Below, one piece after another: positions 22,704-51,600 of a stretch of DNA of 64,000 bases. A program made the translations under genes and the position numbers. The notes beneath the pieces were generated by a model. The model was not told the DNA's origin and made no database searches. It was given only the letters and a program-made list of their open reading frames with translations. The stretch lies in the NCBI GenBank assembly GCA_903813345.2, contig CAIIXF020000001.1, positions 22,010,001-22,074,000 of the forward strand. The letters run 5' to 3'. Position 1 is the first letter of the stretch. Every line of letters starts with the position of its first letter. This stretch comes from Owenia fusiformis. Its lineage: Eukaryota.

Positions 22704-22730
22704 TTACAGTTAACCTGTGGGATGATCAAT

Positions 22731-25700
22731 ATGAGTAGGTACGTACATTTTATCTTGCAATTGTCTATAGGTCGTTGTCGTCATTATTTAAACATCTTGT
22801 GATGTCAACATGCGACGTTCGATTTTTTACAGTAGAGTTGGACATATGTTCTATGTTCATGGACTTACCCGTAATTATATCATAGGTTGAGTTATGTATG
22901 GTTGAGTTGTGTATGTGTGGTGCTACTTCAGCTGATAATATGTCGGGCTGCTGGCCCAGGTTCTGGTATTTACTTATATTTATATAAATTAGAATTAATC
23001 GTCTGGTAATTGGCCGATAACACGAAAAGAAGACGTTTCAATTCTCAGTTATCAAATAGCAATCATAACTGCTTTAACTATGGATGCAATTCCCACACCC
23101 CATAATATTTTAACATTGGCACTGCAGGGTGTGTGATCCGACTCTCATTTGAAGACGTTCTGATTTTACGACAAAATAAATACAATATTGAAATAAAAAC
23201 ATAAACGTCAATCGAGTTATGAACATTAATGTCAATTTATGGGCATATTTGCTAACGCCATTCAGCCGTTTGATGCTATTTCGATTAAATATTGATCAAC
23301 ATAGGCTAATATCATGAAAAGTAAGATACTCCGGCATTAGATGTTTAATAGAAGCAATGCTGTTATTTAAAATACATAAATCAAACGTTCATATAAACAA
23401 GAAACAGAGTGATATTCGCAGTTAAAGAAGATAGAATGATTTTATTTACATTATATTTATTTTAAATCCCAGCTTGAAAATGATAAATATGAGTTGTTAT
23501 CATATTGAGATGGCTAGTCAACAATACAGAAATACTTGGCCACATTTTTAGTATCCCGTCCACCCGTTTAAGATACAATAAATAAAATATAGTGAAAATA
23601 GATATCAGGATATTGGGATGTCCAAGTGACAGAAAGAATTAAATGCATATTTCAATCTCCGATTTAAGGGCCCTTTACGAGTATTCGTTTGACCAGGGCA
23701 CGTAAAGGGCAAGCGGGTCTCGAAGGACAAGTCGAGTTGTTCTTTAACAATAGTACAATAATGATACCCCAATGGGGCGTAATATGCGGGGATTTTGATG
23801 ACAATGCTGCGAAGGTTGTTTGTCGAGAGCTCGGTTTTCCAAAGGGCACCAGAGCAGTTCCTCTGCTTGTAAGGATTCTATATTTCTATAACATTTCATA
23901 TTTTAGCTATCATTCATACGTTGTTTCGGTATGATTTCGAACATACATCAAAAACACTTTCCGACAGATAAAGTCACTTTAGTGACAATTTTTGAACGTT
24001 TTTTATCCTTAAAACATTCCATTAATTGTTTAAAGGATTCTCATTTCGGAATAAAAGATAAGCAGACTTTCATGCACCTCCCCCCGAATGCATGTAACGG
24101 TACAGAGAAGAGGCTGGTCGATTGTCAACATTCGCCTATCCTTCATTGGCCTCCAGGTACCGTGTTTATAGCATCATATTCTCGCAGATTACTGAGCAAA
24201 CTGAGATTAATTGGGCAAAATAAAATGAAAAGTGCCCTTGTACAGTGAAACCTGTTAAGTGAAACAGTTCTCTGTTTGGGGAAAACTTCAGAGTAAAAAG
24301 ATCAACTGACTCAATGTTAAATGAACCTCTATAAGTGGAACACCTCCCAAGGGAACACTTTTTAGGCCCTAACCATGAGGTTGCGAGTTCGAGACACGTG
24401 TGCTCCTTGTGTTTATTCATTTTAGGCTTTTACTGTACTTAAAAGTGTAACTGTCGATCAATCTAGGATAGCAGACTCATTATACTCATTGTTTGATATC
24501 TTTGTTAAAGATACCATCTTAGATTTTCAAGGTATGATGTTTTCATATTGTTTGAAAATCAAACTGGGAAACGAGTATGTAAAGATACACCACTTGTATG
24601 AATTTTACATATTCCAGGAATTTCATGTAAGCGCACAAATATCCACAGGGACAATAAGGACGGTTCTGAGAACATCATTGGCGTCTCGTGTGAATCTGAA
24701 CCAGATATTGAAAGTGAGTGCAAAGAACACCCTTCATAGGCCAGAACCTTACATAGTCCATTTTATAAGTATTACTTTTGAGTATTAGTCTAGCCACAAG
24801 CCCTTGTGAGCCCCCTCCCCCAACTACACGCCTCACCTGTTGTGTACGTTCGTGTAGGGCTCCATAGTCTTGAAGCAAGACTATTTGAATTATGATTTCA
24901 ACCTATTGTTAGGGTACACCGACACCCATAATATGTTTGATTTTGAAATCCATTGTGAATTGACTAGAATCCTACACATACGCTTTTCACCATGCTCTTG
25001 AAAAATATCTATATAAGTAATTATAGACATTGACTTCAATTGATTTTTTCTATTTCAATTTTTTTATACACACTACTCGTACTATTGATTGTTAATTGTA
25101 AATATTGTTTGGAGGGCATTATATTACTGGTCTTGGTCATTGTTTGCTCATCCCACCAAAAGGAAACAAAGGTTATTGAACAAATACTTTTATATGGTAC
25201 AGAAAACAATCTACATATAATATATTCATATACACTACTGACCAATCATGTCATTTCAGTTCGACTTGTTGATGGAATAGACAACACAGAAGGAAGGGTG
25301 GAACTCAGCTACTATGGTACATGGGGCACTATATGTGACGACTCCTGGGATGACAACGATGCCAAGGTCGTATGTCAACAGCTGGGTTTATACCAGACCC
25401 ATGGCAAAGCATTTAGCATGAGGGCCGCCTATTTTGGAGAGGGCCAAGGTGCAGAGTAATTTATTTAACGTTATGACCATCAATCCTCAAACTCAATGTA
25501 TTTTAGGCACTAAAATAGCATGATTTGGTACGTTGAAATAGCATGAAATTCCCGGCATATTGCTGCAATGTAGACCTCCTCATAACTTTCGGGATGCTCT
25601 CTGTATTTCGAGTGCATTTTTCAAATTCTCCAGCGTCATTAATTAAAGGATCAGATAAGATAGAGAGGAGATAAGTGAAAAAATTGTTGGGAGATTTAAA

Positions 25701-28700
25701 AATTATTATTCCTGGATAAATACTTTTGCAGCATTTTCGAGTGTAGCTTTATCGAGTCCAATCAATGCATGACCGCCATCTTGAGCCACACAAGCGCCAT
25801 TCATCATTGCCGCATCATCAGAGGCCAAAAACGCGATCAATTTTGCAGTTTCTTCAACCGATCCGACTTTTCTTATCGGTACCACTTTCTCGCAGTTGGA
25901 ATACAGCTCGACTTGTTCCTCTTTAGATAATCCCAAGTTTTTTAAATTGTTAAAGTTTTTCACAAAACCTGGACACACAGCATTTACACGAACCCCCTGA
26001 GCTCCAAACTCAAGCGCTGCACATTTGACAAACATATTCAATCCTGCTTTTACAATGCTATCAAAAGGAGCGATGTCAGTTGCATTTGTAGAATATAAAT
26101 CCGAAGTACAGACGATGTTTCCTCCACTCTGCTTCAGAGCTGGGAAACACAACTGCGACAAATGCATAGGAGCACGAAGCATAACCTTCACCTCCAAATC
26201 AAATGCTTCCATTGGGCCTGTTGTTAAATCATGCGGTTCATAATACCCAGCGTTGCTGACTAAAATATCAATCCTTCCAAATGTTTTAATAGCAGTTTCT
26301 TTGATGTTTGCAAGGGTATTCTCATCCATTACATCCCCTTGGACATAGGGAAACATGGCATTCTCGGTACTGACACTTTTGCATTCAGCGACAGTTTCGT
26401 TAATGCCATTTAAATCTCGCCCATGAACCAGAACACTTGCGCCCTCTTTAGCCAGTAACATTGCAGTAGCTCTACCTATACCACTACTAGATCCAGTAAT
26501 AATCGCGCACTTCCCCGAAATCTCATGATGACTAGATCCCCTTTATTTCATGCACTATACGAGTATATACGAGTGTATTTGCAAAGATGCTCTATATACA
26601 AGTCATTGACATGTAGAAATTCTATTCATCTGACATGAACTTTGAACATGCAATGAATAGACATGGCCAGGTTTAAAATGTTCACTATAAACAGGACTGT
26701 GCAATAATAAATTATATATGTCGTACATTAACGGTCTAGTTTGACACCAACAGACTCATGAATAGAGAAAAAATGTCGGAAGTAAAGTATAATTCATTTC
26801 ATGCCAAATTGAAATCAACGTTTATTGTAAGGTGGATACTGTTTTATATGTACAATCCATGCCATTTAATCTCTGTATTAAAGGTGCAACAATTAGTGCA
26901 AATGGGCCATTCAACGATCAGGGACCAGTGTCAAAATATATTTAAGTTTGGATATTTCATCCAGACTAACATATATTTTTATGATCTACAAAGAAACCCC
27001 AAGGATGAACATTATTTCAGCTGATATTCCACTTGTAACGTCGTGGATCTTAAAACTCTATAAGTGGGACTCCCTTTATAGAAGCTTTGAATTTGCACTT
27101 CTTAATGCTGAAATTGATAGTTTACCCATATATTTTAAGAAAATAGGTATGTCAAAGAGGATGTTAAGCCAAATGTTGCCCTGATAGCTCAGAAAAAATA
27201 AAAAATTTCGAATTTTCTCTCTACAGTCCTTGTTGCCCCTTTAACCATTTGGGAATAAACAAATGACTTTTTGTTGAATGGTCGCCTAAAACACAATTCA
27301 TTACAAAATTGATGAAAATATAAATGGATTGTTACACTAATGATAGATGTGTCTTGATGTGATGGTTGTTACTATAGTAATAGTGCCTTCGAGATTGAAA
27401 TAAATCGCTAGACTTAAATGGTGGAGCTGACGGTTTAAAAACTGAGCAATACACTGTAAGTAACCTTTCGTCTCCTATTTTAGTTCCTCATGTGTTCATG
27501 AATAAAGTTGCCTGCAATGGTAACGAAGATAAGCTCCAAACGTGTGGGCTTGTCAAGTCTGTTGGAACCTGCCTTAAAAGTAAAGATGCATCCGTGTCAT
27601 GTCTGAGAACGCCTATCCGAAGTAAGTATATTGTTATACGAGTATTAAGAAAATTCAAATATTCGATCGATTTGATATTCGAATATTATTGCAACTGAAG
27701 TCCATGTATTGTTATTTACCGATTTTACCTAGAATACATCTTCAAAATTCAATGTTAACGTTGTTTCCCGTAGATAGGGTCAGATTGGTAGGAGGGTCAG
27801 ACTACGCAGGTAGGGTGGAGGTTTACCATAAACACAAATGGGGAACTGTTAAAAGTAGCAACAGACCATTCGGAATCGACCAACATGCTTCAACAAATAA
27901 CTTTGAAAGAGTCATATGCAGACAGCTAGGCCTTACATCAAACTTGGATAGTGCGACGAGGTAGGTTAGTTTAACTTGCTATGTTCAAATAAAGGCGAGG
28001 GCCATCGCGATTATTACTTTTATGTATCATCAATGTTGTCGCTGTGATCAATGTAATGTTGCCAGCATTTGCCTTGAATTTCAAGGTACCTCGGATCACC
28101 ATTTGGTTATGGATCAGCCAGATCACTACCATACATCAAATGTTTTGGAAATGAGTCATCGGTTGAAGATTGTGTGCTTGAATGGTCCTCTAATCGTTAT
28201 TGGCGTGCCCCAGGGTGGTTCCATTTATCAGATGCATCTTTGTCGTGCAAACCGCAACCGCTAGAAGGTATGATACCAAATGTGGCTTTATTTGCCAGAA
28301 CAGCGTTATTCTTGGTCAAATTAATATTGAAAAGGTCATTGGTGTCTCTGAATTCCCATGGCACAGGGTATACTATCTATGTGACGTAAATTAATAAAGC
28401 TTTCTATTTCATAAAATTAGTGAGACTCGCTGATGGTGCCAAAAAGTCTCAAGGTCGTCTTGAGGTTAACTTCAATGGTATTTGGGGAACCGTTTGTGAT
28501 GATCTAGTAACAGTTTCTGATGCTAGAGTCGTATGTAAGATGCTTGGGTACAACGACAACAGAGGTATTGTCGTACCAAGGGGAACTTTCCCTCCAGGTA
28601 AACAAAAAGCATCAATTCATTTATCATGTTACTTACTTTCTAAAAATCACAATTTCCCCTTCATTTAAATCCAATGCATATTTTGTACAATCCCAAGTGA

Positions 28701-31700
28701 CCTAGAAGGTCTTGGTAGATATCAGAATAAATTATTTTACCTCAATAGCTTTATAATTAATTGAGCCTGTTACCCGTTGACAATATTTTAGTCTAGCTAC
28801 AAGTCTTTGTGGTCCTCCCCTACACACCTCCCCTCTGTATGAGTTTCATACATTTGAAGTCAAATAATGGGAGGGGGGTTAACAGGGGCTTGTAGCTAGA
28901 CTAACAATCTTTTAGGAGATGGAATTCGAACATGGCTCTCAGCGATGAGATGTAAAGGATCTGAGACGATTATTGATACATGCGACAGAAATAAGATATT
29001 GCAAAAGTTTGGGAAGAAATGGGAATGTGGACATTCAGAGGATGTTGGAATAGACTGCGACCCTCCAATATCATCAGGTGAGGATCATTTGTAGATTAAA
29101 CGAACGCAAAACATAACTGATAAATGAATCAAATCAATATTCTTAATTTGAAAAAGTTATCTTAAGAATAAACACTAACCAAATGTTTTTTTCATTAGGA
29201 ATTTAAATTATCATAAAACGTGTTACTTTACATATTATAAATACTTTAACACGCGGTACTAACTTCGACCGTTAATTTGAATTTTTGACCTACCGGATGT
29301 TTGAAAGTCAAGGATTACGGGTCTCGTACAGCACCGTTTTTCTTCAAACTTTCCATTCAAAGCATAACAAAAATCCCTTTCTGTTGGTACATTATTCTCT
29401 TAAACAGAGTCCCTACTTCCAGCGGCATTTTGGTCCCCAGCTGTAAGAAGGCCTTCTAACAGCTGGGGACCAAAACGCTGCTAGAACGAGAGACTCTTTA
29501 CAGTAAAGTAATGCACCGACAGAAAGGCAATTTTGTTTTGCTTTTAATGGTATAAGTTTCAAGAAGAACGGTACAGTATGAGACTTGCAATCCTTCATTT
29601 TCGAGCATCTGGTAGGTCAAAAATTCAAATTAACGGTCGAAGTTAGGACCGCGTGTTTAAGGCCCCTACTAAATAATTTATGTTATCAGAGTTATGGAGG
29701 CTTTCCGGTGCGGGAGAAGGCGTCGGTGTGGTGCAGTACAACTATAATCTTACTGGCTTATGGGGAGTAATTACAATATTCGATGTTAATATAAAAAAGG
29801 CACTCGCCCCGCTAATTTGCGATCATTTCGGGTACGATCCCGAAAATGCAAAATCACTGCGAGATTTTGACTACTACGACTCTAGTAAAGGTCTTCCCGT
29901 TATTTCAAACAAAATCAGTTGTCCAACCCCAACGACTTCACTGCGTGATTGCAATGTCTCTCTTCTTCCACAACCCTCATTCTCATCACCACATAGGAAC
30001 ATGCTCATCGTATCATGTATACCAGAGGACACAGGAAGTAAGTCACAATAACCAACATTCAAACGTCTTCTTCGATTTACACTATTTGCGCAAATACCAA
30101 TTTGAAAGCAATATTGAAATGTCAATCTTTGAATAAAATAGGTCAATATTTTGAAATAGTCAGGCTAACCAGTTGGAGCAAAATGATATTCCGAAAATGT
30201 ACATCGACAACCATATACATGTGAATGTTTCAGTTCGACTAGTTGGTGGTAAAGATGACACGGAAGGGATGGTGCAAGTTAGGGGAAAGGGTATGTGGGT
30301 AGGCATGGGAGAAACAGTATCCAGTCAATTCAACGACAATCATGCAGCTGTTGTTTGTCGACAATTGGGCTTCAAAGATACGTCAGAGGCAACGTCTTTA
30401 ACAGGTAATCGCCTTTTACATTCAACAGAGAATATAGAACACAAATATGCAAAAAATATGGAGCCAATTATGAACATAAAAACAAACCCTGAACACCCAA
30501 AGCACGAACCAAAGTACAATGAATCAGCGCATTGCCGTTCATGTAGGTTTCATTTTGGATTTTCAGAAGCCTACTTTTCTAAAATGGATGTTTCAAACCC
30601 GATTGCGTTGCGAATTAACGATAGAAATTGTCCGTTGGAGACAAATAAAGACATTATGAGCTGTATATATTCTGCGTGGTTTATCAATACATTTCCACCG
30701 GTGGAGCCTGCCGCCGTATCTTGTGTTAAACCAGCACGTGGTAAGTGAACATTGAATTCAGTCATTTACATTAATGAATTATATAACGGTTCTCATCTCT
30801 AGTTTTTGTGTCACCACCGAAAGTGCCAACACATTGTTAGTTGTTACAGTCTCCAACTTTTTTGTGTTCGACAGTCTGCGTTCGGCGCCGGTCGGCGCCT
30901 CAGTACAAACTCTTACAACTTCCAATAACCATTGCTGGTAAGTCACCAATCGTTACATAGGCCTACTTTATATAGACTCTTCGTTTAGAAACAATAAGAC
31001 TCAGTGGAGGATCTCATTCATACGGCAGATTGGAAGTGTTGTACAAAGGAGAGTGGGGGACAGTTTGTGCTGCTGACTGGAGAGAACGGCAGTCCATTGT
31101 TGCATGTAGACAACTGGGCTTTGGGAGCGCGTTCGCCCAACAAATACAATCTGGTATGTCTTTCTTTAGTAAAGAACAGATCGGGAGCGAATTCAGCTGG
31201 AATCAGCATCCTCCGAAAGCAGGGCTCCAGATATCATCCCCCGGGGTATCATCCACTATTGTTCCTCATTCATCCAGGGATTCAGGTCAATACTTCCTTT
31301 TTTGTGGAGAGAAAAAAAGAACAAAGTGGATGAAGTCTGATGATGTCTGGACCCCATACGTTCGGAGAATGGAATATCAGTCTTAAAACTATGACACTGT
31401 CCATACCTGCTATGATAAAAGTAGGGAGAGATTCATAAAAAAGTGTTACACACAAACATGAAGTCGTGTCCCATGGTCCATTGGGAGGAGCATTTATTCG
31501 AAATTTTTGCCCAATTAATCATTTCTTCGTGGCTTCAATAATATAACAACTTCTTCAGTGAGTGGCAAAAGCTTAACAGCAAATTGATATCCATTTTATA
31601 TTTCTTGATCATTAGTCAAGTCATGTCTTATTGTAATTTCATTTCCAATGCAGGAACGTCAACAAAAGAAAATGTTCCTGAAAGGATTTGGTTGTATGAC

Positions 31701-33254
31701 GTTGATTGTACTGGGGAAGAGAAAAGACTGGAAGGATGTCGACATAACGGTTGGGGTTGTGCTCCTTGTGAGCATGCGGAAGATGTTGAGATTACATGCG
31801 AAGAAGTTCTGGAAGAAGGTACGAAATATACACATTGTACAATAATATTAACAGTGTGATGATGGGTGATGTTATATTTCTCCCAATACCTTCCTCTTTC
31901 TGATTCACGCGTACGATACTGAGTTGTCCAACTCCTAAACAGTGTCTGATTTCTCTAAATCCAACGTTTTTTTTATATTAGTTCGTCTTGTGGATGGAAT
32001 CGGTCCCTACACTGGTCGGTTGGAGGTAAAACATATGGGTGAATGGAAGTCTGTGTGCTCCTACAATGGATGGGATAATAAACTTGATTCTAAAACTGTA
32101 TGCAATCAACTAGGCTATACAACTGATGATCCAAACTTTATTTACGCTGCGCACAACGGTTGGTTTATAAAATGGAGAAATGGGTACCATTATTATCGTG
32201 AATCATTAAAAGATGTTCAAATATTACATTTCGAAGAATCTGAATTCACATTCACAGTGAACGAAAATGTCACAGTTTCAGATTTATTATTTCAGAAAAG
32301 ATCCGCATGGGAACTGATGAAGAATTTTCCATGGTGAGGAGCAGGGTAACTTGCGACGGGACTGAGGACAACCTCGGACGATGCAGTCATCTACATGGAT
32401 TCCTTTCTTTTGTCGAAGTTACTCCCTCCAGTCTCGGCAGTGCTTTGTATAATTGGTGCGTTCACGAAGACAACTCTGTGTGGATCTACTGCCCAACTGA
32501 GACACCACGTATGTTCCTTATTGTACTAACATGATTGAATTTAAACATCCATCTCATGTGAGAGGACCTCGTTCAGCAGTCCAAGGTGCAGATGCAAAAG
32601 TGCCAGAATCATGAAATCGTCTTTAGCCGAAGAGGGACAACGTATATTTGGATCTTTGGTACACCGAGATGTTTTATTTTTGATCAGACACAAAGGCCTA
32701 TATACCGATACATATTTCCCTTTCATCTTACAGTTGTAAATCCGACGGCTGAGTCCTGTAGCGATGGTTGGTTCCTTGAGAATATTGTGACTGATAAAAT
32801 GGTTTGCGCAAAGAAAATAATCATGGAAGATTGTTCTGTAAGTTAATCAATTGAGCCAATGTATGGACGAAATTGAATCGACCATTTGTTTCTAACTGAA
32901 ATACTAGACCAATCATGGGCGTAGCCAGGGAAGGGGGAGGGGGTACAGTGGGTGCTACCCTTCCCCCACAAAAAAGTAATTTTAGTATGTCCCCGACTAA
33001 CTGTCAAGCGTGACATATTCATCACATTGTGATTGTGTCTATCCATATCAAGTATTCTAATTTATTTTACCAACCAGGCAGCTGGACGCCTCACAGGTTA
33101 TCCACTCATGTGTGAAGATGACGCAGGGAACATATCTATGACGGGGTTGAAAAGTGTTGACGGCTGTCCAACAGGTTTTGTGACAACATACGATACGTTT
33201 GATGAAAGCGATATAGACTGGATGAATGATGTTATGTCAGCATATGGAGATTAG
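22731..33254 (+). CDS. Secreted 8xSRCR protein with C-terminal partial trypsin-like module, copy 1 (~1077 aa, 20 exons)
   Basis: Exons 22731-22738, 22886-22965, 23669-23868, 24036-24156, 24618-24713, 25260-25448, 27484-27621, 27774-27960, 28086-28267, 28421-28597, 28916-29077, 29690-30037, 30234-30404, 30567-30740, 30989-31153, 31654-31818, 31982-32158, 32296-32508, 32734-32837, 33078-33254 sum to 3234 nt in frame. Signal peptide [30 protein letters not shown] motifs RLVxG..GRVE..WGT(I/V)CDD..A.VVC.QLG and C.H.EDV...C. No TM segment seen. Exons 1-2 are less certain. Confidence 0.88.
24243..24435. mobile_element. pogo/Tigger-type MITE
   Basis: TA-CAGTGAAACCT ... AGGCTTTTACTG-TA. Confidence 0.6.
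24786..24883. mobile_element. ~100-bp TAG..CTA element (AcademH-like non-autonomous)
   Basis: TAGTCTAGCCACAAG / CTTGAAGCAAGACTA; degenerate 9-bp flanking repeat; related to 28789-28903 and ~43743-43831. Confidence 0.55.
25706..26526 (-). pseudogene. Intronless short-chain dehydrogenase/reductase (FabG-like classical SDR) nested in SRCR copy 1 intron; possibly pseudogenised
   Basis: [13 protein letters not shown] (TGxxxGxG), [29 protein letters not shown] and DGG motifs. ATG at 26526 (MRF..GK) is one base out of frame with the rest. The YxxxK position reads DSIVK. Lies within intron 25449-27483. Confidence 0.75.
26882..27240. mobile_element. Kolobok-like MITE with TTAA TSD
   Basis: TTAA-AGGTGCAACAA ... 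TTGTTGCCCCT-TTAA. Confidence 0.7.
28789..28903. mobile_element. 115-bp TAG..CTA element (AcademH-like non-autonomous)
   Basis: 15-bp perfect TIR TAGTCTAGCTACAAG; TSD ACAATATTT / ACAATCTTT (8 of 9). Confidence 0.75.
29250..29655. mobile_element. piggyBac-like MITE with ~95-bp TIRs
   Basis: TTAA-CACGCGGTACTAACTTCGACCGTTAATTTGAATTTTTGACCTACC... mirrored, ending GACCGCGTG-TTTAA. Confidence 0.75.
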
Positions 33255-33358
33255 AGAAACGTTTAGAAAAATATAACTTTATAAAAGTTTTTGCAAACCT
33301 CTCTTTTTGTACAGTTATATTCCATAGAAATACATACAAAGAACTCCAGACACGAGCT

Positions 33359-34069
33359 CACCCTATGCAGACAGAGCATGTGGGAAATATTGGGTGCGGA
33401 GCAAATGAGCGGAGGGTGCGGAGCTAACGGTTATTTTTGAATTTAAATTTGGGATATTTCTGAAACTAAGCCGTTTTGGGACTTCAAATATACCAAGATA
33501 TGTGTATTTGACACCAAATATCAATACAATTGTGAAAATAGTAGCGCAGTTCATTCTATAGCGACGCAGTGTGCCTTAAACCTTTCCCAGACCTATATAT
33601 TTTGAAATTATCCTTTTAATACTGAGTCCCCAGCATTCATAAAAAATGGTGTTCAAGGTGCACTATCTATACAAATTATTTTTGCATCTTGGAAGCCAGG
33701 CAGTATCTGTGTGATTTTATAAAAATTCTGAAATTTTTTCAGATATGAGCCCCCTCTAAATATTGGGTGCGGAGCAGCTCCACAAACGTAGCTCCGCACC
33801 CAATATTTAGAGGGGGCTCATATCTGAAGAACATTTCCGAATTTTTATAAAATCACACAGATACTGCCTGGCTTCCAAGATGCAAAAATAATTTGCATGG
33901 GTAGTGTATCTTGAACACCATTTTTATGAATGCTGGGGACGCAGTATTAAAAGGATAGTCTCAAAATATATAGGTCTGGGAAATGTTTAAGGCATACTGC
34001 GTCGCTCCGCACCCTCCGCTCATTTGCGCCGCACCCAATATTTCCCACAGGCTCTGTCTGCATAGGGTG
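33359..34069. mobile_element. Foldback MITE with CAC termini and 5-bp TSD (Transib-like)
   Basis: CACCCTATGCAGACAGAG / CTCTGTCTGCATAGGGTG; TSD GAGCT; almost wholly palindromic about ~33780, with the left arm ~130 bp longer. Confidence 0.88.
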
Positions 34070-34127
34070 GAGCTAAAACGAGACGAATAATGGATATAAC
34101 GCAAGAAAACTTGCAGAATATATAAAA

Positions 34128-34501
34128 TGGCTGGCCATCTGAATGTATCGTCATACTTTTAAGCCCTCAAAATTGATTTTACACCGTTAAAAATCACTTT
34201 GTATGCCGTCGAAAACGATTTCATACGCAGTTGAGAATAACTTTGTACGGCGTCAATATCAATTTTGAAAGGCGTCGAAAATAATTTTGTACAAACAATC
34301 GAAGCAATGATTTCAAACTTGGCTGCCATCCAAGACGTAATTTACGTGTCACATACAATTTTTGACGTGGTTCAAAATCATTTTTGACGGCGTGCAAAAT
34401 CATTTTTGACGCGGTAACTCAACCGCGTAATTGTCGTTTTTGATTGGATTATACGTGCGGTGTTAAAAGTATGACAATAGTTTCGTCCAGATGGCCAACC
34501 A
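34128..34501. mobile_element. TIR element with internal ~22-bp tandem repeats
   Basis: TGGCTGGCCATCTG..TGTATCGTCATACTTTTAA / TTAAAAGTATGAC..CAGATGGCCAACCA; internal AAAATCATTTTTGACGGCGT-like units. Confidence 0.6.
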
Positions 34502-42589: not shown

Positions 42590-42610
42590 GTTGACTGATA
42601 GATGATCACG

Positions 42611-45600
42611 ATGGATCGGTATGTAAAGATTAAGTCTATAATATAGACTCTATATAGGTCATTCTTCAAACCATATAGCTATATATTATATGTTGGTATA
42701 CAACGTTATTTTGTTATTCGTGGACTTAACGTGGTTTTACGTTCATCATTGCAGGTTGTGTAACGTATGTGTGCTACTACTTCATCTCATTTGGTGTGCT
42801 GTTGGTCATCATTACGGTATTAATTACATTTACAAACTTTAATATTGATCATCAGATTTCTTAATGGAGCTACATGCATATGACACAGTTCGAAATTGAA
42901 TATCATTATTATTGTTAGCTGTTACATCTTCGTCCTTGGTTGTTACTGTTTTTGCTTTTGAAAATCAGGCAGTAAAACTTGCAGGAATGGTAAAACCCCG
43001 TTAATATAAAATCGTATTTGCTGACAAAATGCTGGACTGTTTAAACCACTTCAGCTAAATACATCATTGATATCAATATCATATTCTTAGAGATAAATAC
43101 TCGTATCAAGAAAACGATCGAATCGTATGTCCATAGCATAAACATGTAAGAATAGAGAACAGACTGCTGAAAGCAAGTATCGTGAAAACTTAATGTGCAT
43201 ATTTTAATAATCATGTGCGCATTAAAGGACTTGGACCAACAAACGCAGACATTACAAGTATTCGGCTAACTAGGTCACGTGAAGGAAGAGAAGGTCTTGA
43301 GGGACAAGTCGAGTTGTACTTTAACAATAGTGCAATAATGACACCCCAATGGGGCGTGATATGTGGGGATTTCGATGAAAATGCTGCCAAGATTGTATGT
43401 AGGGAGCTCGGTTTCCCAGTGGGCACTCGAGCAGTTCCACTTCTAGTAAGAATAATAACAATTTTAACTAGTAGCGTGTATTATGACTTTTGTTTGAACA
43501 AAATGCAAACGTTTTGGGATAAGTTCGTCAACGGTGCACGTCAATTTCTTCTGTGGTCATTATCAATTTTCATATTCTGAAAACTCCCACCATTAAAGGA
43601 TTCTCATTTCGGACTACAAGATAGGCAGACGTTCATACATCTTCCTCTAAATGCGTGTGCGGGTGATGAGGAAAGGCTGATAGAATGTCAACATTCGCCC
43701 ATCCTGGAGGAACATTGGCCCGAAGGTACTGTAGGAAGTATTAGAGTTGCTTCAAGTCTTTGGACCCCCTCTATCCCCTTTACCACAAATGGAACTGGTA
43801 ATGGAGGGTCACAAGGGCTTGCAGCTATCTCCAGATTTCTTTAGTAACTTGAAGCATGAGTTTCCGAAATAATTAGATGATTTCAGCATGTTCAACCTTT
43901 TCATCACACATCCCGTCCTCTTAGTTCTTCATAAGTCTCTCTGGGGCCTCGATCGTGTGACACAAACATTTTTCACACCTCTTCGATTCCAGACATTTCA
44001 TGTAATCGTACGGACATCCACAGGGATAATGAAGACGGTTCCAAGAACATCATTGGCGTCTCTTGTGGTTCCGAACCCGATATTGAAGGTAAGTGAAATG
44101 AACAATAAAGTTACAAACTTGATTAGATAGAATTTTGAGTTAGATTTAGTTTATAGATGGCCTATAGGCCATCAGCTTCACCCCAAAATTTAGGTTATCG
44201 GTACCAAGTTAGGGGAATAAGCCTCATTGTGATTTTTGGCAAGGTAAATACCTCTAGAGTAAGAAATTATATGATAGCATTGCAGGAGTGGCAGCTAAAT
44301 GGTTGTTATCACCCATTTTTCAAAATGGCCGCCGGTGCACTTACTACCAAATAAAAGAAGTTATATCAAAGCACACTGAGAGACAAAAACAGTGATTTTG
44401 AGGTCTATTTCAGGGTTTTAGGGGTCAAGGATTTCATTTAAGTCAAAATCTAAGTCATCAAAGAATTGGAAATCCAAGATGGCCGCCATAATGGATGTCA
44501 AAACAAATATGTCACTATTGATATAAGTTCAAAAAGCTCAAAGAATGGTTAAAAAGTGACTTTGGAGACCATGAAAAGGTTTAAGAGGATAGGGATTTTA
44601 TTTGTCTCTAAATCTAAATAATAATCAAAGAACTACTTTACATAGAAATCCAAAATGGCCACCAAAATGAATGTCAAAATGAATACGTAACTATTTATGT
44701 AAACTCAAAAATGGTTGCTTTTGCAGACCATGGTAAGTTTAAATAGAGGTTAAGGATTCCATTCATGTATAAATTGAAGTGATTAAAGAATACCTTTATA
44801 CAGAAATCTAAACTGGCTGCCAAAATGGCTGCAAAAATGAATTTTTAAGCACATAGAAAAATTAGAATAGTTATGTTATAGATATCTGAGACTGGGTTTC
44901 AGGAGAAAATGGTTTCAATTTACCTTTACTTAAGTTATCTTAACCTTTCCTCATATTAAAATCCAAAATGGTCACCAAACTGGCTGCCAAAATAAATTAC
45001 AACATTCACATGGAGCATGACTCAACCATCTAACCTATTTCCTTTATTTGCCATCTTGAAGTCCACAGGCTGCAGACCTAGTTCTCTCAACATGATTTTC
45101 CGAGAAGAACATTGGAAGCCTCTAAAGCCTACATGAACTGGGAAGTGTCTCACCTTCCACCCTTTACACCTTACTTTGTCAATGAGGTCTTCATTCTCGG
45201 CACTCTTCAGTCTATCCGAGATATTATCTTCTGTGTAATTGTAGACTTGGATTGAGTCTGTCCTTTCTTTACAGACCTACGGCCCTCGGGCAGATATATT
45301 ATATTGGCCTTGGGATAATCCCCATATCCTGAACCTCATATAGGATAATCTCTATGTACCAACTCCCTACATTGCTAAGGTCAATAGCTTTCATCCACTT
45401 TTCTAGTTCTCACAGATGCTGTTGTTGGGACCCATCAAAATATTTTGCCAAAATATATTCAATTCTCTCATCATGGATAGTATGAAAAAAAAACATTAGC
45501 TTCATTTGTTACTCTGCTTGCAGAGTCTAGTTAAACTAGAGATGAAGCTCTCTTTTCTGAAGCGAAGTCGAATTAATGCAAAGGATATTCCTTTGTATAC

Positions 45601-48600
45601 CACTCAGTTGAAAAGATTCCTGGGATTGCACTACATATATCTCATCTTCTCCAAGCAGCTTAAAATCCGTTATGCTCCAGGAAATGACTAGGTCATAACA
45701 TTAATGATGTCCAAAAAGGCTAGGCAAGAAAGATGTCTTGTATCATCATTCCCTTTGAGACCTCCATATTAGGACTCTTCTGCTTTCATAAACCAGTTCA
45801 TTGTTTTGATGAAGAGAGTACAATTGAGATGGTACATCACATCAGGGCCATCTTTGATATCCAAATGAATATGTTCCAAAATTAATTATTCATTTTGGCA
45901 GCCATTTTGGTTGCCATCCTGAATATCCAAATAAAAGAATTATTTGATGACTTAAAGTTCTCAACCATTTAAACCTAGCCATTGACTTAAAATTATCGAC
46001 CTCTGAAACCTAGACATGGTCTCCAAAATCACTTTGTAATTGTTCATTGAGCTTATATAAATGGTAACTTATTCATTTTGGCATCCATCTTGGATTTCCC
46101 TTCAAGTTATTCTTTGAAAACTAAGACAATAAAATTATTGATCCCCAAACCCTTTCATGATCTACAAAACTACATTTTAGCTATTCTTTGAGCTTACATT
46201 AATAGTTACATGTTCGTTTCGGCACCCATATTGGCGGCCATTTTGGTTTTCTATGAAAAGTAATTATTTGATTACTTAGACTAAAATGAAGCATAAGTGA
46301 AATCATTAACCTCTAAACCCTTTCATGATCTATAAAATTGCTTTTTATCTGTTCTTTGAGCATGTATCAATACATGTAGTTACATATTCCATTTGGCACC
46401 TATTTTGGCGGCCATCTTGGATTTACATATAAGGTAATCCTTTGATGACATAGATTTAGACATGAATAAAATCCTTAGGCTTGAAAACCTCTTCTAAAAC
46501 TCTTCAAAATCATTTTGAAACGTTTTAGCTTGTATCATTAGTTACATATTTGTTTTTGAACCAAAATTGGTGGCCATCTTGGATTTTCGTATGAATTTAT
46601 GTTTTGATGACTTGGATTTATGCATAAATTGAATCAGTGACTCCTAAAACCCAGAATTAGACCCTAAAATTACTGATTTTGCTTCTCAGTATGCTTAGAT
46701 ATAACTTCTTTCATTTGGTAGCAAGCGCACCGGCAGCCATTTTGAAAAATGGGTAAAAACACCCATTTAGCTGCCACTTCTGCAATGCTATCACATATTT
46801 TCTTACTCTAGGGGTGTACACCTTCCCAAAAATCACCATGGCCATTATTCCCCTGATTTGGTACCGACCAACCCCCCAGGCTGATCGCCTACTACGAGAG
46901 GTTTGCAAATGCAATAATATTATAAAAATTGAGACTGTTCAATGCTTTGTTGGTGAAATACATCATAAGTTAATTGTTGCTTGCCTTAAACCAAAACAGA
47001 AGGTCAAGATTTAAGGCTAGGACATAATCAACGATTGTTTTAGCACACAAAAAGCACACAAAGTCAAAACAACCGTTCATCTGCATGCTGTAAAGTGTAG
47101 AATGACTTTTTTCCGTTTTGATTAGCCGAAATGTGATATATCATGCTTAATGAATACACAATGCATCCATATCAAACTCTCATATCCATACCCAATTATA
47201 GTTCGACTTGTTGATGGAAGAGACGAAACAGAGGGCAGGGTCGAAATGAGTTACTATGGTACCTGGGGTACTATATGTGACGACTCTTGGGATGACAACG
47301 ATGCCAAGGTCGTATGTCAACAGCTGGGTTTATACCAGACCCATGGCAAAGCATATAGCATGAGGGCCGCCTATTTTGGCGAGGGCCAAGGTACCTAATT
47401 TAATAATTTCCTCCTATGAAAATATACATGTGAATGTGCAAGGGGCATCCATGTACAGGATCACCAGAGACTGATCGATGGAAATATCTTAAAAATATTC
47501 AAAGATCACTGAATTCAACAATTTGCATTCGAATTGTTCACACTTGTCATAATAATGTTATACGTGGTTTTTGCCACCTATTAATGATTAATTTAATGTT
47601 TGAATTGTTTGGCTGTATAATATGAAATGCTTGGCTGTGACATGAAAATGCTTGGCTGTGAGAGATATTTAGATCGTCTAGTCTTACCGTACTCGCAAAT
47701 ATGAATAACGAATATAAGTTACATAATACAATTACTTTATTATTGTGTAACCTTTAATCAACTGTGAACGTGTAAACAATAATATGTACGTTAAACCATT
47801 TCACTTTCGTTTACCTCGAATACAATGCTATATGTCTGTCAGACCAATGTTAAATTCGGCATCCTCGATTACCTAGTTTTCTCCATTTCCTTTCCTCGGC
47901 TCCTTGACTTATTTTCCGACATCATGACGATTGTAAGTTTTCAGATTCTTTTCCGCTATCTTCCCACCATCTTTCCACTATCATTTTCTTCACCCTGATC
48001 TTACATTCATTCACAACTTATATACCATTTGAAACGTTAACAAGACGCATCTCATCATTGACTCTGATTGGTTACTTATTACATAGAGTTCTAAAGATAG
48101 AAATGATGTCATTGTCAGGATAATGCAAGAACAGACAAACGTTGGACCTTCGTCATGCACCTGGCTATAATTGATTACTGGAAAGCTGATTTACATATTT
48201 AGATCCAGTCATATCAGGAGCATGTTTATAAACAGAACTGACCTCAGGATGTACCTAATAAATCTTGAGCTGTCAGCATTGTGAAATACTGTTCTCAACA
48301 CTAACATGAATTGAACCTACTTTACATTCTTCCTTTGCAGTGCCTCACGTATTTATGAATAATGTTGCTTGTGATGGGATTGAAGATAAAATAGATGAGT
48401 GTGGTCTTGTCAGGTCTGTGGGAAACTGCCTTAAAAGTAAAGACGCATCAGTGTCATGTTTGAGAGAACCTGTTCAAAGTAAGTAACCATATCCTGATAT
48501 CGTGGACAAAGAATTAGAAAACCACTGAGTCACGTGGAATAATCTACTTGTTAAGGGCTTTTTTACCAATTAACTGTACCGAAATTGTGTAAACAGATGT

Positions 48601-51600
48601 TATTTCCTCTTATAACGATATGATGTTGAAAGGAGCACGTAGGTTATCGCAAACAATTTCAAACGATTCTAACTTGAATTATGAATATTTTCTGATCATG
48701 AACATGGATGTATCTTTTAGATCCATTCATTATCTTCAAGAAAAGTATATATAATGATAATTTAGTTAATCAGACCTAAGTGATATTGAAGGGGCAATGG
48801 ACCAATCAACATACTTTTTCAAAAATGTTGACCTAATTTTCACCAAAAATGCAACCTATTATTATATTGTTGAATGCATAATTAGAATGTGCTTTGAGAC
48901 ATGTTCAAAATCCTAAAAGGAAAATTTGATTGCTCCAGGGACTTTAAAGATATTCAATTTGGATGACCAAAATGAACTGAAACAAATGGATAGCATGAGA
49001 TTTTTCAATGGAGAAATAACATGGGGAACTCTTATCTTAATGCAATTAAGTTTTTCTTTCAAGAACTGTTTGATACATCAAAATAAAGAATAGTAATGCA
49101 TTAAACATTGTAAAAAATGATTGCATTTTTGGTGAAAATGGGGTCAACATCTTCAAAATGGGGTAAAAAAGTGTGTTGATGGGTTAATTGCTAGTTAAAT
49201 ATCTCCGAGTTTGTTTGAATTTATTATTACTGTGCATAATTTTCATTGAGATAATGAATTGATCTAAAAGATAAACTTGTCTTCATTGTCAGAAAATAGT
49301 CATAATCCAAGATATAACCTTCTGAAATTGTTTGCGATAACCCACGTGCTCCTTTCTAAATGTTATGCCAAAAGACAAAGCAAATAATAAATAAATAAAT
49401 ACTTCCTGTAGATAGGGTGAGACTAGTAGGAGGGTCAGAGTACGCTGGTAGGGTAGAGATTTACCATAAACTTAAGTGGGGAACTGTTAAGAATAGCGAC
49501 AAACCATTCGGAATCGACCAACATGCTTCAGCAAATTACTTCGAAAGAGTCATATGTAGACAGCTTGGTTTAACAACAGCGTTGGAGAGTGCTGTCAGGT
49601 ACTATCGTATGCATTCGTTCAATTTCGCTTCTTAAAACTAGATTTAGCGCGCAGGGTAGTTATCATGAAACTACTCAATTCATATCAGTAACTGTGACGT
49701 TTACGACCAGGTCATTCATATTTGTTTTATATTAATGTTCATATGACCCATTTCTATTTGCTAAAGATACCGTGGATCCCCGTTCGGTTACGGATCAGAT
49801 AGATCCTTACAGTACATCAAATGTTACGGAAATGAATCCACGATTGACGACTGTGTACTTGAATGGACGTCCAACCTCTATTGGCGTGCACCAGGTTGGT
49901 TCCATTGGTCAGACGCATCAGTGTCCTGCAAACCACATCCTTTAGAAGGTAAGACGTCCACGTCCATAATGTTATGTTCGAACATACATTTAAGTAGCTA
50001 CTATAGTAGTATATGATCTCTGTAAAAAACGTTGTATTTGACAATGTCTGAACTTGTGTTTTGAGGGAGGGGCGAAAACCAGTCATCCTTGCCTATAGGA
50101 AAATGAGCTAACTTTTTTTTAGAACAGTGATATTAGCGTGTTCACTGGTGATCCACTCGATTACGCTGGTTACCAAAACGAACCGTTTTGGTAACAAAAT
50201 GTCGGAACATCCGGAAGGTACGATTTTTCTCGTTTCCTTATTTTACACGTTGTAGGCAGAATTCCAACGACATTTTTTAACACAAACGTGTATCAGTATC
50301 ATATGTTTAAGAAAGTGTACATATTCGCGAACAAATAGTTCAGAAGACAACAGAATCGTCGATTTACTTCCTCACTTAAGTTACATAAACGGTTTGGGTT
50401 AAAAGTGCAGATCTTAACTGTTTTTCGAAAAACCGTTTATGTAACTTAAGTGAGGAAGTAAATCGACGATTCTGTTGTCCTCTGAGCCAATTTATTGCAA
50501 ACATGTACATTTTCTAAAACATATCATACTGATGCACGTTGTGAGAAGAAACGTCGTGGGGATTCTGCCTACAACGCGTGAAATAAGGAAAAAAGAAAAA
50601 TCGTGCCTTCGACGTTCCGACATTTTGTTACCAAAACGGTTCGTTTTGGTAACCAGCGTAATCGAGTGGATCACCAGTGGTGTTTTTATTTCATTTAATT
50701 AGTGAGACTTGCTGATGGTGCCACGGCATCACAAGGTCGCCTTGAGGTTAACTTTAATGGTATTTGGGGAACCGTTTGTGATGATTTGGTAACTCCAACT
50801 GATGCTAGAGTTGTATGTAAGATGCTTGGATACAACGACGGCAGAGGTATTGTCGTACCAAGGGGAACTTTCCCTCCAGGTAAACAAGAATCATCAATAT
50901 ATTTGTTTCTCATGTTTCAGAGAATTTCATCATTCCCTAATGCATAACAATATTGTCTAAACTCTGGTTCATCAGATGGTTTTGCAAGATATCTTGATAG
51001 GGAAGATCACCGATAGCAAAATTAATGTTCCTATTAAGGCATATGCTTCAGTCTTGCACTTGGTCTAATATCCAAAAACCGTTGTTTAACTTGATGTGTC
51101 ACCCTGCTGTCTCAATTGATACAAAAACTATGAATTTCTTTACAAGGAGACGGTCTTCGAACTTGGATCTCGGCGTTGATGTGTGGGCCATCTGACACGA
51201 TCATCGATAACTGTGACAGAAATAAATTAAAATTTGGCAAGAGATGGGCATGTGACCATTCTGAAGATGTCGGTATAGACTGTGACCCGCCAACATCGAA
51301 AGGTGATCGGTTCAAATTACATAGTAGCCGAGACAACACAAGTCCCAAGTCTGTATATTTTTTCTCATTTCTCCACTTTTAAAAGTTAAGTCACCACATT
51401 TTGCATGCACATTCCTTGGAGAAATCCTAACATAGAATTTTATTGGTTTTGATTATAATTTATTTGTTAAATATAGGGAAACATTTGATTTTGACTGGTC
51501 TATAATCAAAATTTTCCATTTTGTGTAACAAATGCAACATTTTGACATTATTAATAAAACTCCAAGTTATAAATGACAGATATAATATGGTGACTCTAAT

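What the first reader, a model, noticed from the sequence alone, without database searches (positions are those of the whole stretch)
32734..33254. Secreted 8xSRCR protein ending in a catalytically dead fragment of a trypsin domain
Seen: the last two exons encode [62 protein letters not shown], joined directly to SRCR8. Established: the C-terminal part of S1A proteases reads VPL..C..ITDNMICAG..DSCQ|GDSGGPLVC..LVGIVSWG.GC..VYT.V..WI...M, and many trypsin-family genes have a phase-0 intron one residue after Cys191. The intron here (32838-33077) is phase 0 one residue after the equivalent Cys. GDSGGP has become RLTGYP, and the regions bearing His57, Asp102 and the activation site are absent. Inference: a neurotrypsin-like SRCR-protease lost about two-thirds of its protease domain and kept roughly residues 160-245 as a non-enzymatic module (oligomerisation, substrate decoy or complementation with a partner). 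The Cys201 equivalent lacks its usual partner Cys136, so it may form inter-chain disulfides. I do not know this architecture from described proteins.
Basis: partly seen in the sequence, partly recalled or inferred. Interest (0 to 1): 0.85.

Follow-up and report, generated by a model that had tools for sequence, protein, structure and literature searches.

The report
SRCR proteins with protease-relic tail
Two neighbouring genes of the marine worm Owenia fusiformis encode secreted proteins made of eight SRCR domains that end in a short, conserved piece which looks like the last third of a trypsin-type protease and cannot be an enzyme; it is an unusual leftover, but of modest wider importance.

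Summary
Exons 32734-32837 and 33078-33254 (+) follow SRCR8 directly, with GT-AG introns of phase 1 and phase 0, and give the 93-aa end of an annotated Owenia fusiformis protein (P0001, 1078 aa, 8 SRCR). A tandem paralog (P0002) at 42.6-61.5 kb has the same tail.

The trypsin-fragment reading rests on several weak to moderate lines, none decisive:
- PDB sequence searches put S1 proteases first, colinear with their C-termini (E 0.07-0.6).
- My own S1A profile from 34 bacterial domains gives an empirical p of 7e-4; hhalign gives P 4e-4.
- 28 of 30 language-model look-alikes are Trypsin clusters.
- The five Cys fall on C168, C182, C191, C201 and C220.

Against it: Pfam Trypsin gives no hit, both structure models were too poor to use, and chance hits appear at similar PDB E-values.

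No hidden protease exons exist in gene 1, because the intron is only 225 bp, and nothing S1-like lies elsewhere in the window. The tail is under purifying selection (dN/dS 0.2), and its synonymous divergence is oddly low. Only these two proteins carry it in the libraries searched. Whether the ancestor lost protease exons or captured two, and what the tail does (an orphan Cys suggests disulfide multimerisation), were not tested. I rate it a new variant of a known kind, of moderate interest.

The parts
22722..33254 (+). Gene 1 (protein P0001, 1078 aa): signal peptide, 8 SRCR domains, 93-aa tail. The start is approximate. Residues 1-6 match at 22722-22739 and residues 7-31 at 22887-22961.
   Evidence: Exact-match exon chain. 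18 of 18 junctions examined were rebuilt with GT-AG: 15 phase 1, 2 phase 0, 1 phase 2. Pfam gives 8 SRCR stretches. P0001 is 100% identical.
31982..32508 (+). The two exons of SRCR8 (31982-32158 and 32296-32508). The last one ends in phase 1, five residues after the final SRCR Cys.
   Evidence: (SRCR hit on the first half)
32509..32733 (+). Intron of 225 bp between SRCR8 and the tail. It is too short to hide the ~150 missing protease residues. Retaining it would stop translation after 8 more residues.
   Evidence: Its in-frame ORF 32562-32733 has no Trypsin hit.
32734..32837 (+). Tail exon A (104 nt, phase 1 to phase 0). It encodes (L)[25 protein letters not shown], which aligns with about residues 160-192 of S1 proteases, including Cys168, Cys182 and Cys191.
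32838..33077 (+). Phase-0 intron of 240 bp, one residue after the Cys191 equivalent
33078..33254 (+). Tail exon B with its stop codon. It encodes [32 protein letters not shown] lies on SGGP (Ser195 to Thr). It carries the Cys201 and Cys220 equivalents and the C-terminal helix motif.
42602..61467 (+). Gene 2 (protein P0002, 1084 aa), a tandem paralog with the same architecture and 78.8% overall identity
60720..60823 (+). Gene 2 tail exon A (104 nt, same phases). It is preceded by a 3.9-kb intron (56802-60719) that holds repeats and no S1-like ORF.
61276..61467 (+). Gene 2 tail exon B. It has one extra codon and four more C-terminal residues (EETL).

Best explanation
Two tandem Owenia fusiformis genes encode secreted proteins of eight SRCR domains. 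Their last two exons are a 93-98-residue relic of the C-terminal third (about chymotrypsin residues 160-245) of an S1A serine-protease domain.

The relic cannot be an enzyme. The parts that carry His57, Asp102 and the activation site do not exist. The Ser195 position is Thr, and the active-site loop is three residues longer than canonical.

Origin (inferred): almost all introns of the gene, including the one before tail exon A, are phase 1. Removing or skipping the upstream protease exons of an SRCR-protease ancestor would therefore keep the reading frame. Capture of the last two exons of an S1 gene would do the same.

The relic has been kept as coding sequence in both copies.

Function (inferred, about 30% confident): it is a small disulfide-braced C-terminal module. 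Its fifth Cys, the Cys201 equivalent, lacks its normal partner Cys136 and may link chains covalently, multimerising or tethering an SRCR pattern-recognition or adhesion protein.
For: Sequence likeness to S1:
- phmmer of the P0001 tail against 177,635 PDB sequences gave 2 hits at E<=10. Both are S1 proteases and both are colinear with their C-termini: earthworm fibrinolytic enzyme 1ym0_A (E 0.072, tail 3-86 to 149-233 of 238) and elastase 1elt_A (E 0.63, 8-88 to 158-236 of 236).
- Elastase is again the best hit for the two-sequence profile (E 0.37, the only hit) and for the P0002 tail (E 0.3).

Single-hypothesis test:
- I built an HMM from 34 bacterial PF00089 domains. It scores the tail at 6.8 bits (E 2.2e-4 at Z=1), aligned in register (tail 6-65 to HMM 165-222 of 255).
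- 14 of 20,000 shuffles reach that score. For P0002 the count is 25 of 20,000. The reversed tails score -2.1 and -1.3.
- 0 of 784 natural 93-aa windows from the other session proteins reach it.
- hhalign gives local P 4.2e-4 over 77 columns (tail 6-91 to 172-255 of 273) and global P 4.8e-5.

Language-model features:
- 28 of 30 nearest ESM Atlas clusters are 100% PF00089 Trypsin, score 0.92.
- With PF00089 left out, the best named cluster falls to 0.77.

Cys pattern: Cys fall on C168, C182, C191 and C220, and on C201 in the elastase alignments.

Gene structure: the phase-0 intron lies one residue after the Cys191 equivalent, and exon A runs from phase 1 to phase 0. This matches what I recall of trypsin and kallikrein genes.

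Selection:
- The tail has dN/dS 0.205 (7 non-synonymous and 8 synonymous differences).
- An earlier count of 7 non-synonymous among 16 differences gave a binomial p of 0.0016 against neutrality.
- The tail is the most conserved segment (92.5% against 78.8% overall).
- Similarity is confined to the exons.

No full protease:
- The intron in gene 1 is 225 bp.
- There are 0 matches to GDSGGP-type or TAAHC-type motifs in six frames.
- The best of 2,122 six-frame ORFs against the S1 HMM has E 0.17 and is junk. The two exon-A ORFs rank 2nd and 4th.
Against: - Pfam's Trypsin model gives no hit on either exon, on the 93-aa tail or on the whole proteins, even at E<=10.
- HMMER of the tail against 1.84 billion representatives found no S1 protease at E<=0.001. 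The 3 hits were the protein itself and two repeat proteins.
- The PDB E-values are borderline. For the P0002 tail, 59 of the 60 rows shown are influenza haemagglutinin chains that match a 24-residue motif at E 0.56-1.3, the same level as the elastase hit.
- 1ym0_A is lost with the two-sequence profile.
- The ESM scores have few shared features (130-142 of 256). The tool states that 4-10 in 100 shuffled proteins reach 0.9.
- The fold is not shown. The AF2 models have pLDDT 50.3 and 36.5, and Foldseek gave nothing at E<=0.001.
- The low synonymous divergence of the tail may reflect gene conversion, which would weaken the argument from long retention.
- The intron-position argument rests on recall.
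- Splicing and expression were not shown by reads.
- No test bears on function.
Confidence: 0.7

Rival explanations
1. The likeness is chance. The tail is a lineage-specific Cys-rich C-terminal peptide with no descent from a protease.
For: No Pfam Trypsin hit. The PDB E-values are 0.07-0.6, and unrelated haemagglutinin matches appear at the same level. No relatives other than the paralog exist in 1.84 and 5.8 billion proteins. No usable structure was obtained.
Against: Four methods that differ in kind all single out S1 and no other family, and always its C-terminal third in register. The empirical p is 7e-4. 0 of 784 natural windows reach the score. All five Cys fall on S1 Cys positions. The intron position and phase fit.
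Confidence: 0.15
2. The tail is a true protease relic but has no use. It is a decaying leftover or an annotation product, and the working protein is the SRCR array alone.
For: RNA reads gave no junction evidence. Depth over the tail bins was 0.57 and 0.2 in X14 and 0 in X16. The C-terminus differs between the copies (stop after YGD against ..YGDEETL). A partial barrel may not fold (pLDDT 50).
Against: Both copies keep open frames, GT-AG sites and phases, while the rest of the gene has dS 0.73. The tail's dN/dS is 0.2. It is the best conserved segment. Conservation stops exactly at the exon edges.
Confidence: 0.1
3. A complete protease domain is restored by exons that the gene model misses.
For: Gene 2 has a 3.9-kb intron before the tail.
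Against: Gene 1 has only 225 bp there. No S1 motif or profile hit lies anywhere in the 64-kb window on either strand. Exon A begins in phase 1, directly compatible with SRCR8.
Confidence: 0.02

Closest known systems
SRCR-protease mosaics: neurotrypsin (PRSS12), hepsin and TMPRSS proteases, complement factor I (recalled; SRCR with Trypsin is the top SRCR partner domain in fish and chicken in Table 1 of PMC10855680, passage seen)
   Same: SRCR domain(s) are followed at the C-terminus by S1-type sequence. The modules are bounded by phase-1 introns.
   Different: Those proteins have a complete ~230-residue domain with an activation site and the catalytic triad. Here only about the last 90 residues exist, Ser195 is Thr, and there are eight SRCR domains and no other module.
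Catalytically dead S1 homologues: haptoglobin, HGF/MSP, protein Z, azurocidin, arthropod serine protease homologues (recalled)
   Same: Non-enzymatic use of S1-derived sequence in secreted proteins
   Different: Those keep the whole two-barrel fold with point substitutions. This is a fragment that lacks the N-terminal barrel and two strands of the C-terminal barrel.
Exon-skipped kallikrein isoforms that lack catalytic residues (PMC3707919, passages seen)
   Same: Loss of whole protease exons removes triad residues while the frame is kept
   Different: Those are splice variants of intact genes. Here the truncation is fixed in the genome of two paralogs and fused to an SRCR array.
Secreted SRCR-only or SRCR-rich proteins: DMBT1/SALSA, CD5L, LGALS3BP, sea-urchin SRCR proteins (recalled)
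   Same: A secreted tandem SRCR array. Multimerisation or covalent tethering through extra Cys is known for some of them (recalled for CD5L and IgM).
   Different: None is described with a protease-fragment tail. I did not test any likeness of function.

Membership tests
SRCR superfamily (Pfam PF00530) | One or more SRCR domains above the Pfam cut-off | tested here: met
   8 stretches. P0001 scores 422.8 bits and P0002 411.7 bits, against a cut-off of 26.1.
Peptidase S1A / Trypsin (Pfam PF00089) | Match to the family profile above the gathering score (20.6 bits) | tested here: not met
   No PF00089 hit at E<=10 for the exons, the tail or the whole proteins. My own S1A HMM gives only 6.8 bits.
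Peptidase S1A / Trypsin (Pfam PF00089) | Catalytic triad His57, Asp102, Ser195 | tested here: not met
   The regions for His57 and Asp102 are absent: the tail starts at about residue 160, after a 225-bp intron. The Ser195 position is Thr in all alignments.
Peptidase S1A / Trypsin (Pfam PF00089) | Complete two-beta-barrel domain of about 220-240 residues with an N-terminal activation site | tested here: not met
   The tail is 93 residues and aligns to 149-233 of 238 and to 158-236 of 236.
Peptidase S1A / Trypsin (Pfam PF00089) | Descent: significant, colinear likeness of the fragment to the C-terminal third, with the conserved Cys | tested here: met
   Empirical p 7e-4 (14 of 20,000 shuffles). 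hhalign P 4.2e-4 local and 4.8e-5 global. S1 is the top hit in 3 of 3 PDB searches. 28 of 30 ESM clusters are Trypsin. The strength is moderate.
Peptidase S1A / Trypsin (Pfam PF00089) | Chymotrypsin fold of the fragment (strand order; 168-182 and 191-220 disulfides) | tested here: inconclusive
   AF2 pLDDT is 50.3 (tail) and 36.5 (SRCR8+tail). Foldseek found nothing at E<=0.001.
Peptidase S1A / Trypsin (Pfam PF00089) | Family-typical phase-0 intron just before the GDSGGP exon | not testable with these tools
   The position here is shown. The family pattern is recalled. Passages only place Ser195 in the last coding exon of kallikreins and call the intron phases conserved. No eukaryotic S1 gene was at hand.
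Neurotrypsin-like / TTSP SRCR-protease mosaics | SRCR followed by a zymogen activation site and an active S1 domain | tested here: not met
   Five residues link the last SRCR Cys to the tail. There is no activation motif and no full domain.
Serine protease homologues (pseudoproteases) | Full-length S1 fold with substituted catalytic residues | tested here: not met
   Only the last ~37% of the domain is present.

The most novel reading that the evidence does not exclude
A fragment of the chymotrypsin fold (four of the six strands of the C-terminal barrel plus the terminal helix) has become an autonomous, selected module. It would complete itself by pairing. Either two tails rebuild a barrel-like unit locked by the orphan Cys201-equivalent disulfide, or the tail complements in trans a partner that carries the missing part. 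That would make it a protease-derived oligomerisation or docking domain for an SRCR receptor array. The unusually low synonymous divergence of just these two exons would then mark strong constraint or concerted evolution of this module.
Probability: 0.12. Interest if true: 0.7.

Novelty: new variant of a known kind. Interest (0 to 1): 0.4.

Why it matters
Dead proteases are common, but those described keep the whole fold. A one-third fragment that is fixed in the genome and conserved, fused to a receptor-type SRCR array, would be a clean example of how phase-compatible exon loss or capture turns part of an enzyme into a new non-enzymatic module. It would also raise the question of whether a partial beta-barrel can fold or must pair. 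The case is confined to one annelid lineage so far and has no functional data, so its reach is limited. It also warns annotators that such tails escape Pfam.

Tried and rejected
- Pfam on each exon, on the joined tail (typed as a part of P0001) and on the whole proteins gave no Trypsin hit.
- I tested whether the 225-bp intron, which is open in frame with exon A (32562-32733), is a decayed piece of the protease. There was no Trypsin hit, only a 12-bit unrelated one. Dropped.
- The window's own genome is not held, so I could not look for Owenia SRCR-protease paralogs. All three homologous-protein searches returned only P0001 and P0002 with the tail. Lottia, Amphimedon and Acanthaster hits covered only the SRCR part, about 40% of the query.
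- P0003 and P0004 from the representative search are repeat proteins with no relation to the tail.
- The AF2 models of the tail (pLDDT 50.3) and of SRCR8+tail (36.5) were too poor to use. Foldseek gave nothing at E<=0.001.
- Complex prediction with two copies of the tail gave no answer (score 0.00, mark 0.32). This is evidence neither for nor against binding.
- RNA: no RNA holder was listed. In the lay, the X1 and X2 contigs run through introns, for example 32471-32810, and behave like DNA. The raw RNA runs X14 and X16 gave depth below 2 over 29.7-33.3 kb, all with the first mate on the minus strand. No joint at 32508/32734 or 32837/33078 appears among the 15 listed; 37 more were not shown.
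- The first PF00089 search of four genomes gave proteins of 247-684 aa at 28-80 bits. I took them for HtrA-like, did not check, and did not use them.
- The ORF +44618-44743 (E 0.17 against my S1 HMM) is low-complexity junk.
- Lottia P0005 windows scoring 5.1-5.6 bits come from a chance SWGK..C motif inside an SRCR domain.
- RNA structure as a cause of the low synonymous divergence: z-scores were +0.49 and +1.23. Not supported.
- Literature on the exact intron position: searches found 0 papers, and one search found 2 irrelevant ones.
Full report
WHAT IS THERE

The window is eukaryotic DNA with 32-42% G+C. The last exon of the finding, used as a query, returned two annotated proteins of the annelid Owenia fusiformis. 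P0001 (1078 aa) is 100% identical and P0002 (1084 aa) is 90% identical, and both lie on the same 62-Mb contig.

Reading the DNA and rebuilding every junction from GT-AG sites reproduces P0001 exactly:
- SRCR8 ends at 32508 in phase 1.
- Exon A is 32734-32837 (104 nt).
- A 240-bp phase-0 intron follows, one residue after the Cys of ..EDCS.
- Exon B is 33078-33254 and ends in TAG.

Of the 18 junctions of gene 1 that I examined, 15 are phase 1, 2 are phase 0 and 1 is phase 2.

Pfam finds eight SRCR stretches in both proteins. The only hydrophobic segment is N-terminal, which fits a secreted protein.

P0002 is encoded in tandem at about 42.6-61.5 kb on the same strand. It has the same two tail exons (60720-60823 and 61276-61467) with the same phases. 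The intron before its tail is 3.9 kb instead of 225 bp.

IS THE TAIL A PIECE OF A TRYPSIN DOMAIN?

Standard tools say little:
- Pfam gives no Trypsin hit for either exon, for the 93-aa tail or for the whole proteins, even at E<=10.
- HMMER of the tail against 1.84 billion representatives gave 3 hits at E<=0.001: the protein itself and two unrelated repeat proteins.

More focused tests do point to S1.

(a) PDB sequence searches.
- phmmer of the P0001 tail against 177,635 PDB sequences gave only 2 hits at E<=10. Both are S1 proteases aligned end to end with their C-termini: earthworm fibrinolytic enzyme 1ym0_A (E 0.072) and salmon elastase 1elt_A (E 0.63).
- The two-sequence profile gave one hit, elastase, at E 0.37.
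- The P0002 tail gave 66 hits. Elastase was best at E 0.3. The other 59 rows shown were influenza haemagglutinin chains matching a 24-residue motif at E 0.56-1.3.
- Chance matches therefore do occur at this level, and the PDB result alone is not proof.

(b) A test of the one hypothesis.
- No eukaryotic S1 sequences could be fetched. I collected 35 full-length PF00089 domains from bacterial genomes (4 of 401 and 26 of 401 genomes had a match at E<=1e-30). I kept 34 distinct ones and built an HMM.
- The tail scores 6.8 bits, E 2.2e-4 for a single target, aligned in register (tail 6-65 to HMM 165-222 of 255).
- 14 of 20,000 shuffles reach this score. For P0002 the count is 25 of 20,000. The reversed tails score -2.1 and -1.3.
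- hhalign of the tail pair against the same alignment gives local P 4.2e-4 over 77 columns, reaching the very C-terminus, and global P 4.8e-5.

(c) Language-model features.
- 28 of the 30 nearest ESM Atlas clusters are pure Trypsin clusters at 0.92.
- With PF00089 excluded, the best named cluster drops to 0.77.
- The tool's own caveats apply: few shared features, and 4-10% of shuffled proteins reach 0.9.

(d) Cysteines. The five Cys fall on C168, C182, C191 and C220 and on C201 (elastase alignments).

(e) Intron. The phase-0 intron one residue after the Cys191 equivalent, and an exon running from phase 1 to phase 0 before it, match what I recall of trypsin and kallikrein genes. The passages I could read say only that Ser195 is in the fifth coding exon and that phases are conserved (PMC3707919; PMC5725587). 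The exact position is recalled, not tested.

The structure could not help. AF2 gave pLDDT 50.3 for the tail and 36.5 for SRCR8+tail, and Foldseek found nothing.

Taken together, I put descent from an S1 domain at roughly 80%.

CATALYTICALLY DEAD AND TRUNCATED

In all alignments TGYP lies on SGGP, so Ser195 is Thr. The stretch from Cys191 to Pro198 is 11 residues instead of 8.

The tail corresponds to about the last 37% of the domain: 149-233 of 238, or 158-236 of 236.

Nothing can restore the rest:
- The intron in gene 1 is 225 bp, and retaining it stops translation after eight residues.
- No GDSGGP-type or TAAHC-type motif occurs in any frame of the 64 kb.
- Among 2,122 six-frame ORFs, the best hit to the S1 HMM has E 0.17 and is junk. 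The two exon-A ORFs rank second and fourth.
- The 3.9-kb intron of gene 2 holds repeats and an ORF on the minus strand (59685-60041) without a Pfam hit.

IS IT KEPT BY SELECTION?

Between the paralogs, the tail is the most conserved segment: 92.5% identity, against 64-88% for the SRCR domains and 78.8% overall.

The tail's dN/dS is 0.205, against 0.167 for the rest of the gene. An earlier count of 7 non-synonymous among 16 differences gave a binomial p of 0.0016 against neutrality.

Introns and flanks do not align, and similarity ends within a few bases of each splice site and of the stop codon.

One thing is unexplained. Synonymous divergence in the tail is 0.158 (8 of 56 sites) against 0.727 (298 of 641) elsewhere (Fisher p 1.8e-6), and there is an 83-nt identical run. 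RNA folding gives no sign of structure. Exon-confined gene conversion or constraint on silent sites would both fit. Conversion would weaken the argument from long retention, but not the dN/dS result.

HOW IT PROBABLY AROSE AND WORKS (INFERENCE)

SRCR8 ends in phase 1 and exon A begins in phase 1, as do nearly all module borders of the gene. Two routes therefore give an in-frame product: deletion or permanent skipping of the upstream protease exons of an SRCR-protease ancestor, or capture of the last two exons of an S1 gene. I could not tell these apart without other Owenia or annelid genes.

The fragment lacks two strands of the C-terminal barrel and the whole N-terminal barrel, so it is unlikely to be a closed barrel on its own.

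It keeps two S1 disulfide pairs by alignment, and it has a fifth Cys whose usual partner, Cys136, is missing. Mature P0002 has an odd number of Cys: 47, if the three Cys within the first 30 residues go with the signal peptide.

My best guess, at about 30%, is a disulfide-mediated multimerisation or tethering module for a secreted SRCR recognition protein. The one complex prediction I ran gave no answer. It is listed under Tried and rejected only.

EXPRESSION

No run on record as RNA held the stretch. In the lay, the two contig sets run through introns and look like DNA. The two raw RNA runs gave depth below 2 on the 3' half of the gene, all in the orientation expected for a plus-strand transcript, and no joint at the tail's junctions was listed. 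The junctions therefore rest on the deposited gene model, on the splice signals and on the conservation between paralogs.

COMPARISON AND NOVELTY

The protein is a member of the SRCR superfamily. It fails every defining test of an S1 peptidase except fragmentary descent. It is not a neurotrypsin or TTSP-type mosaic, and it is not a classical serine-protease homologue, since those keep the whole fold.

The nearest analogy is the set of exon-skipped kallikrein isoforms that lack triad residues (PMC3707919, passages). Those are splice variants, not fixed genes.

Searches of the paper library did not turn up this architecture:
- 'Owenia fusiformis' plus SRCR gave 1 paper, on astacins (listing only).
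- SRCR, truncated, 'serine protease domain' and pseudoprotease gave 28 papers, of which 12 were listed by title and abstract.
- The SRCR, annelid and trypsin terms gave 83 papers, of which 12 were listed.
- A 2024 survey of invertebrate SRCR genes has 0 occurrences of Annelida, Capitella or Owenia (PMC10855680, passages only).

Supplements were closed. In the protein libraries, only the two Owenia paralogs carry the tail.

I rate it a new variant of a known kind. It is real and a little odd, it is lineage-restricted, and it has no functional evidence. Interest 0.4.

Noticed in passing
window 32734-32837 and 33078-33254 against 60720-60823 and 61276-61467: Synonymous divergence of the two tail exons is 4-5 times lower than in the rest of the paralog pair: 8 of 56 against 298 of 641 synonymous sites (Fisher p 1.8e-6). 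There is an 83-nt identical run (33133-33215 = 61334-61416), while the flanking introns do not align. This could be gene conversion confined to the exons or constraint on silent sites. RNA folding z-scores (+0.49, +1.23) do not explain it.
   Followed up: partly
window 25706-26542, minus strand: An intronless 278-aa short-chain dehydrogenase ORF (adh_short_C2, E 1.1e-46) sits inside the 25449-27483 intron of SRCR gene 1, on the opposite strand. It is only 24-29% identical to the bacterial SDRs found, so there is no sign of recent transfer.
   Followed up: partly
window 19412-21121, minus strand: A single 569-aa ORF with a rhodopsin-type 7TM domain (7TM_GPCR_Srw E 4.3e-16, 7tm_1 E 1.5e-13) and a long Ser/Thr/Asn-rich N-terminal part lies upstream of SRCR gene 1.
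   Followed up: no
window 35034-38186, minus strand: A 1050-aa open frame of a non-LTR retrotransposon (endonuclease plus RVT_1, E 4.2e-32) lies between the two SRCR genes.
   Followed up: no
window 24104-24504, 26911-27311, 28916-29717, 33327-34128: Intronic and 3'-flank stretches had summed contig depths of thousands to tens of thousands, and many loose read ends, in all four runs laid. These are high-copy repeats. One begins about 75 bp after the stop codon of gene 1.
   Followed up: no
window 59685-60041, minus strand (inside the 3.9-kb intron of gene 2): A 118-aa ORF that looked to me like the N-terminus of a Harbinger/PIF-type transposase (recalled likeness). Pfam gave no hit at E<=0.001.
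   Followed up: partly
P0002 residues 1012-1036 (window 60797-60823 and 61276-61323): The motif around ..[18 protein letters not shown].. matches a 24-residue stretch of influenza haemagglutinin HA1 chains in the PDB at E 0.56-1.3. I take this as chance, inflated by the many near-identical HA entries.
   Followed up: no
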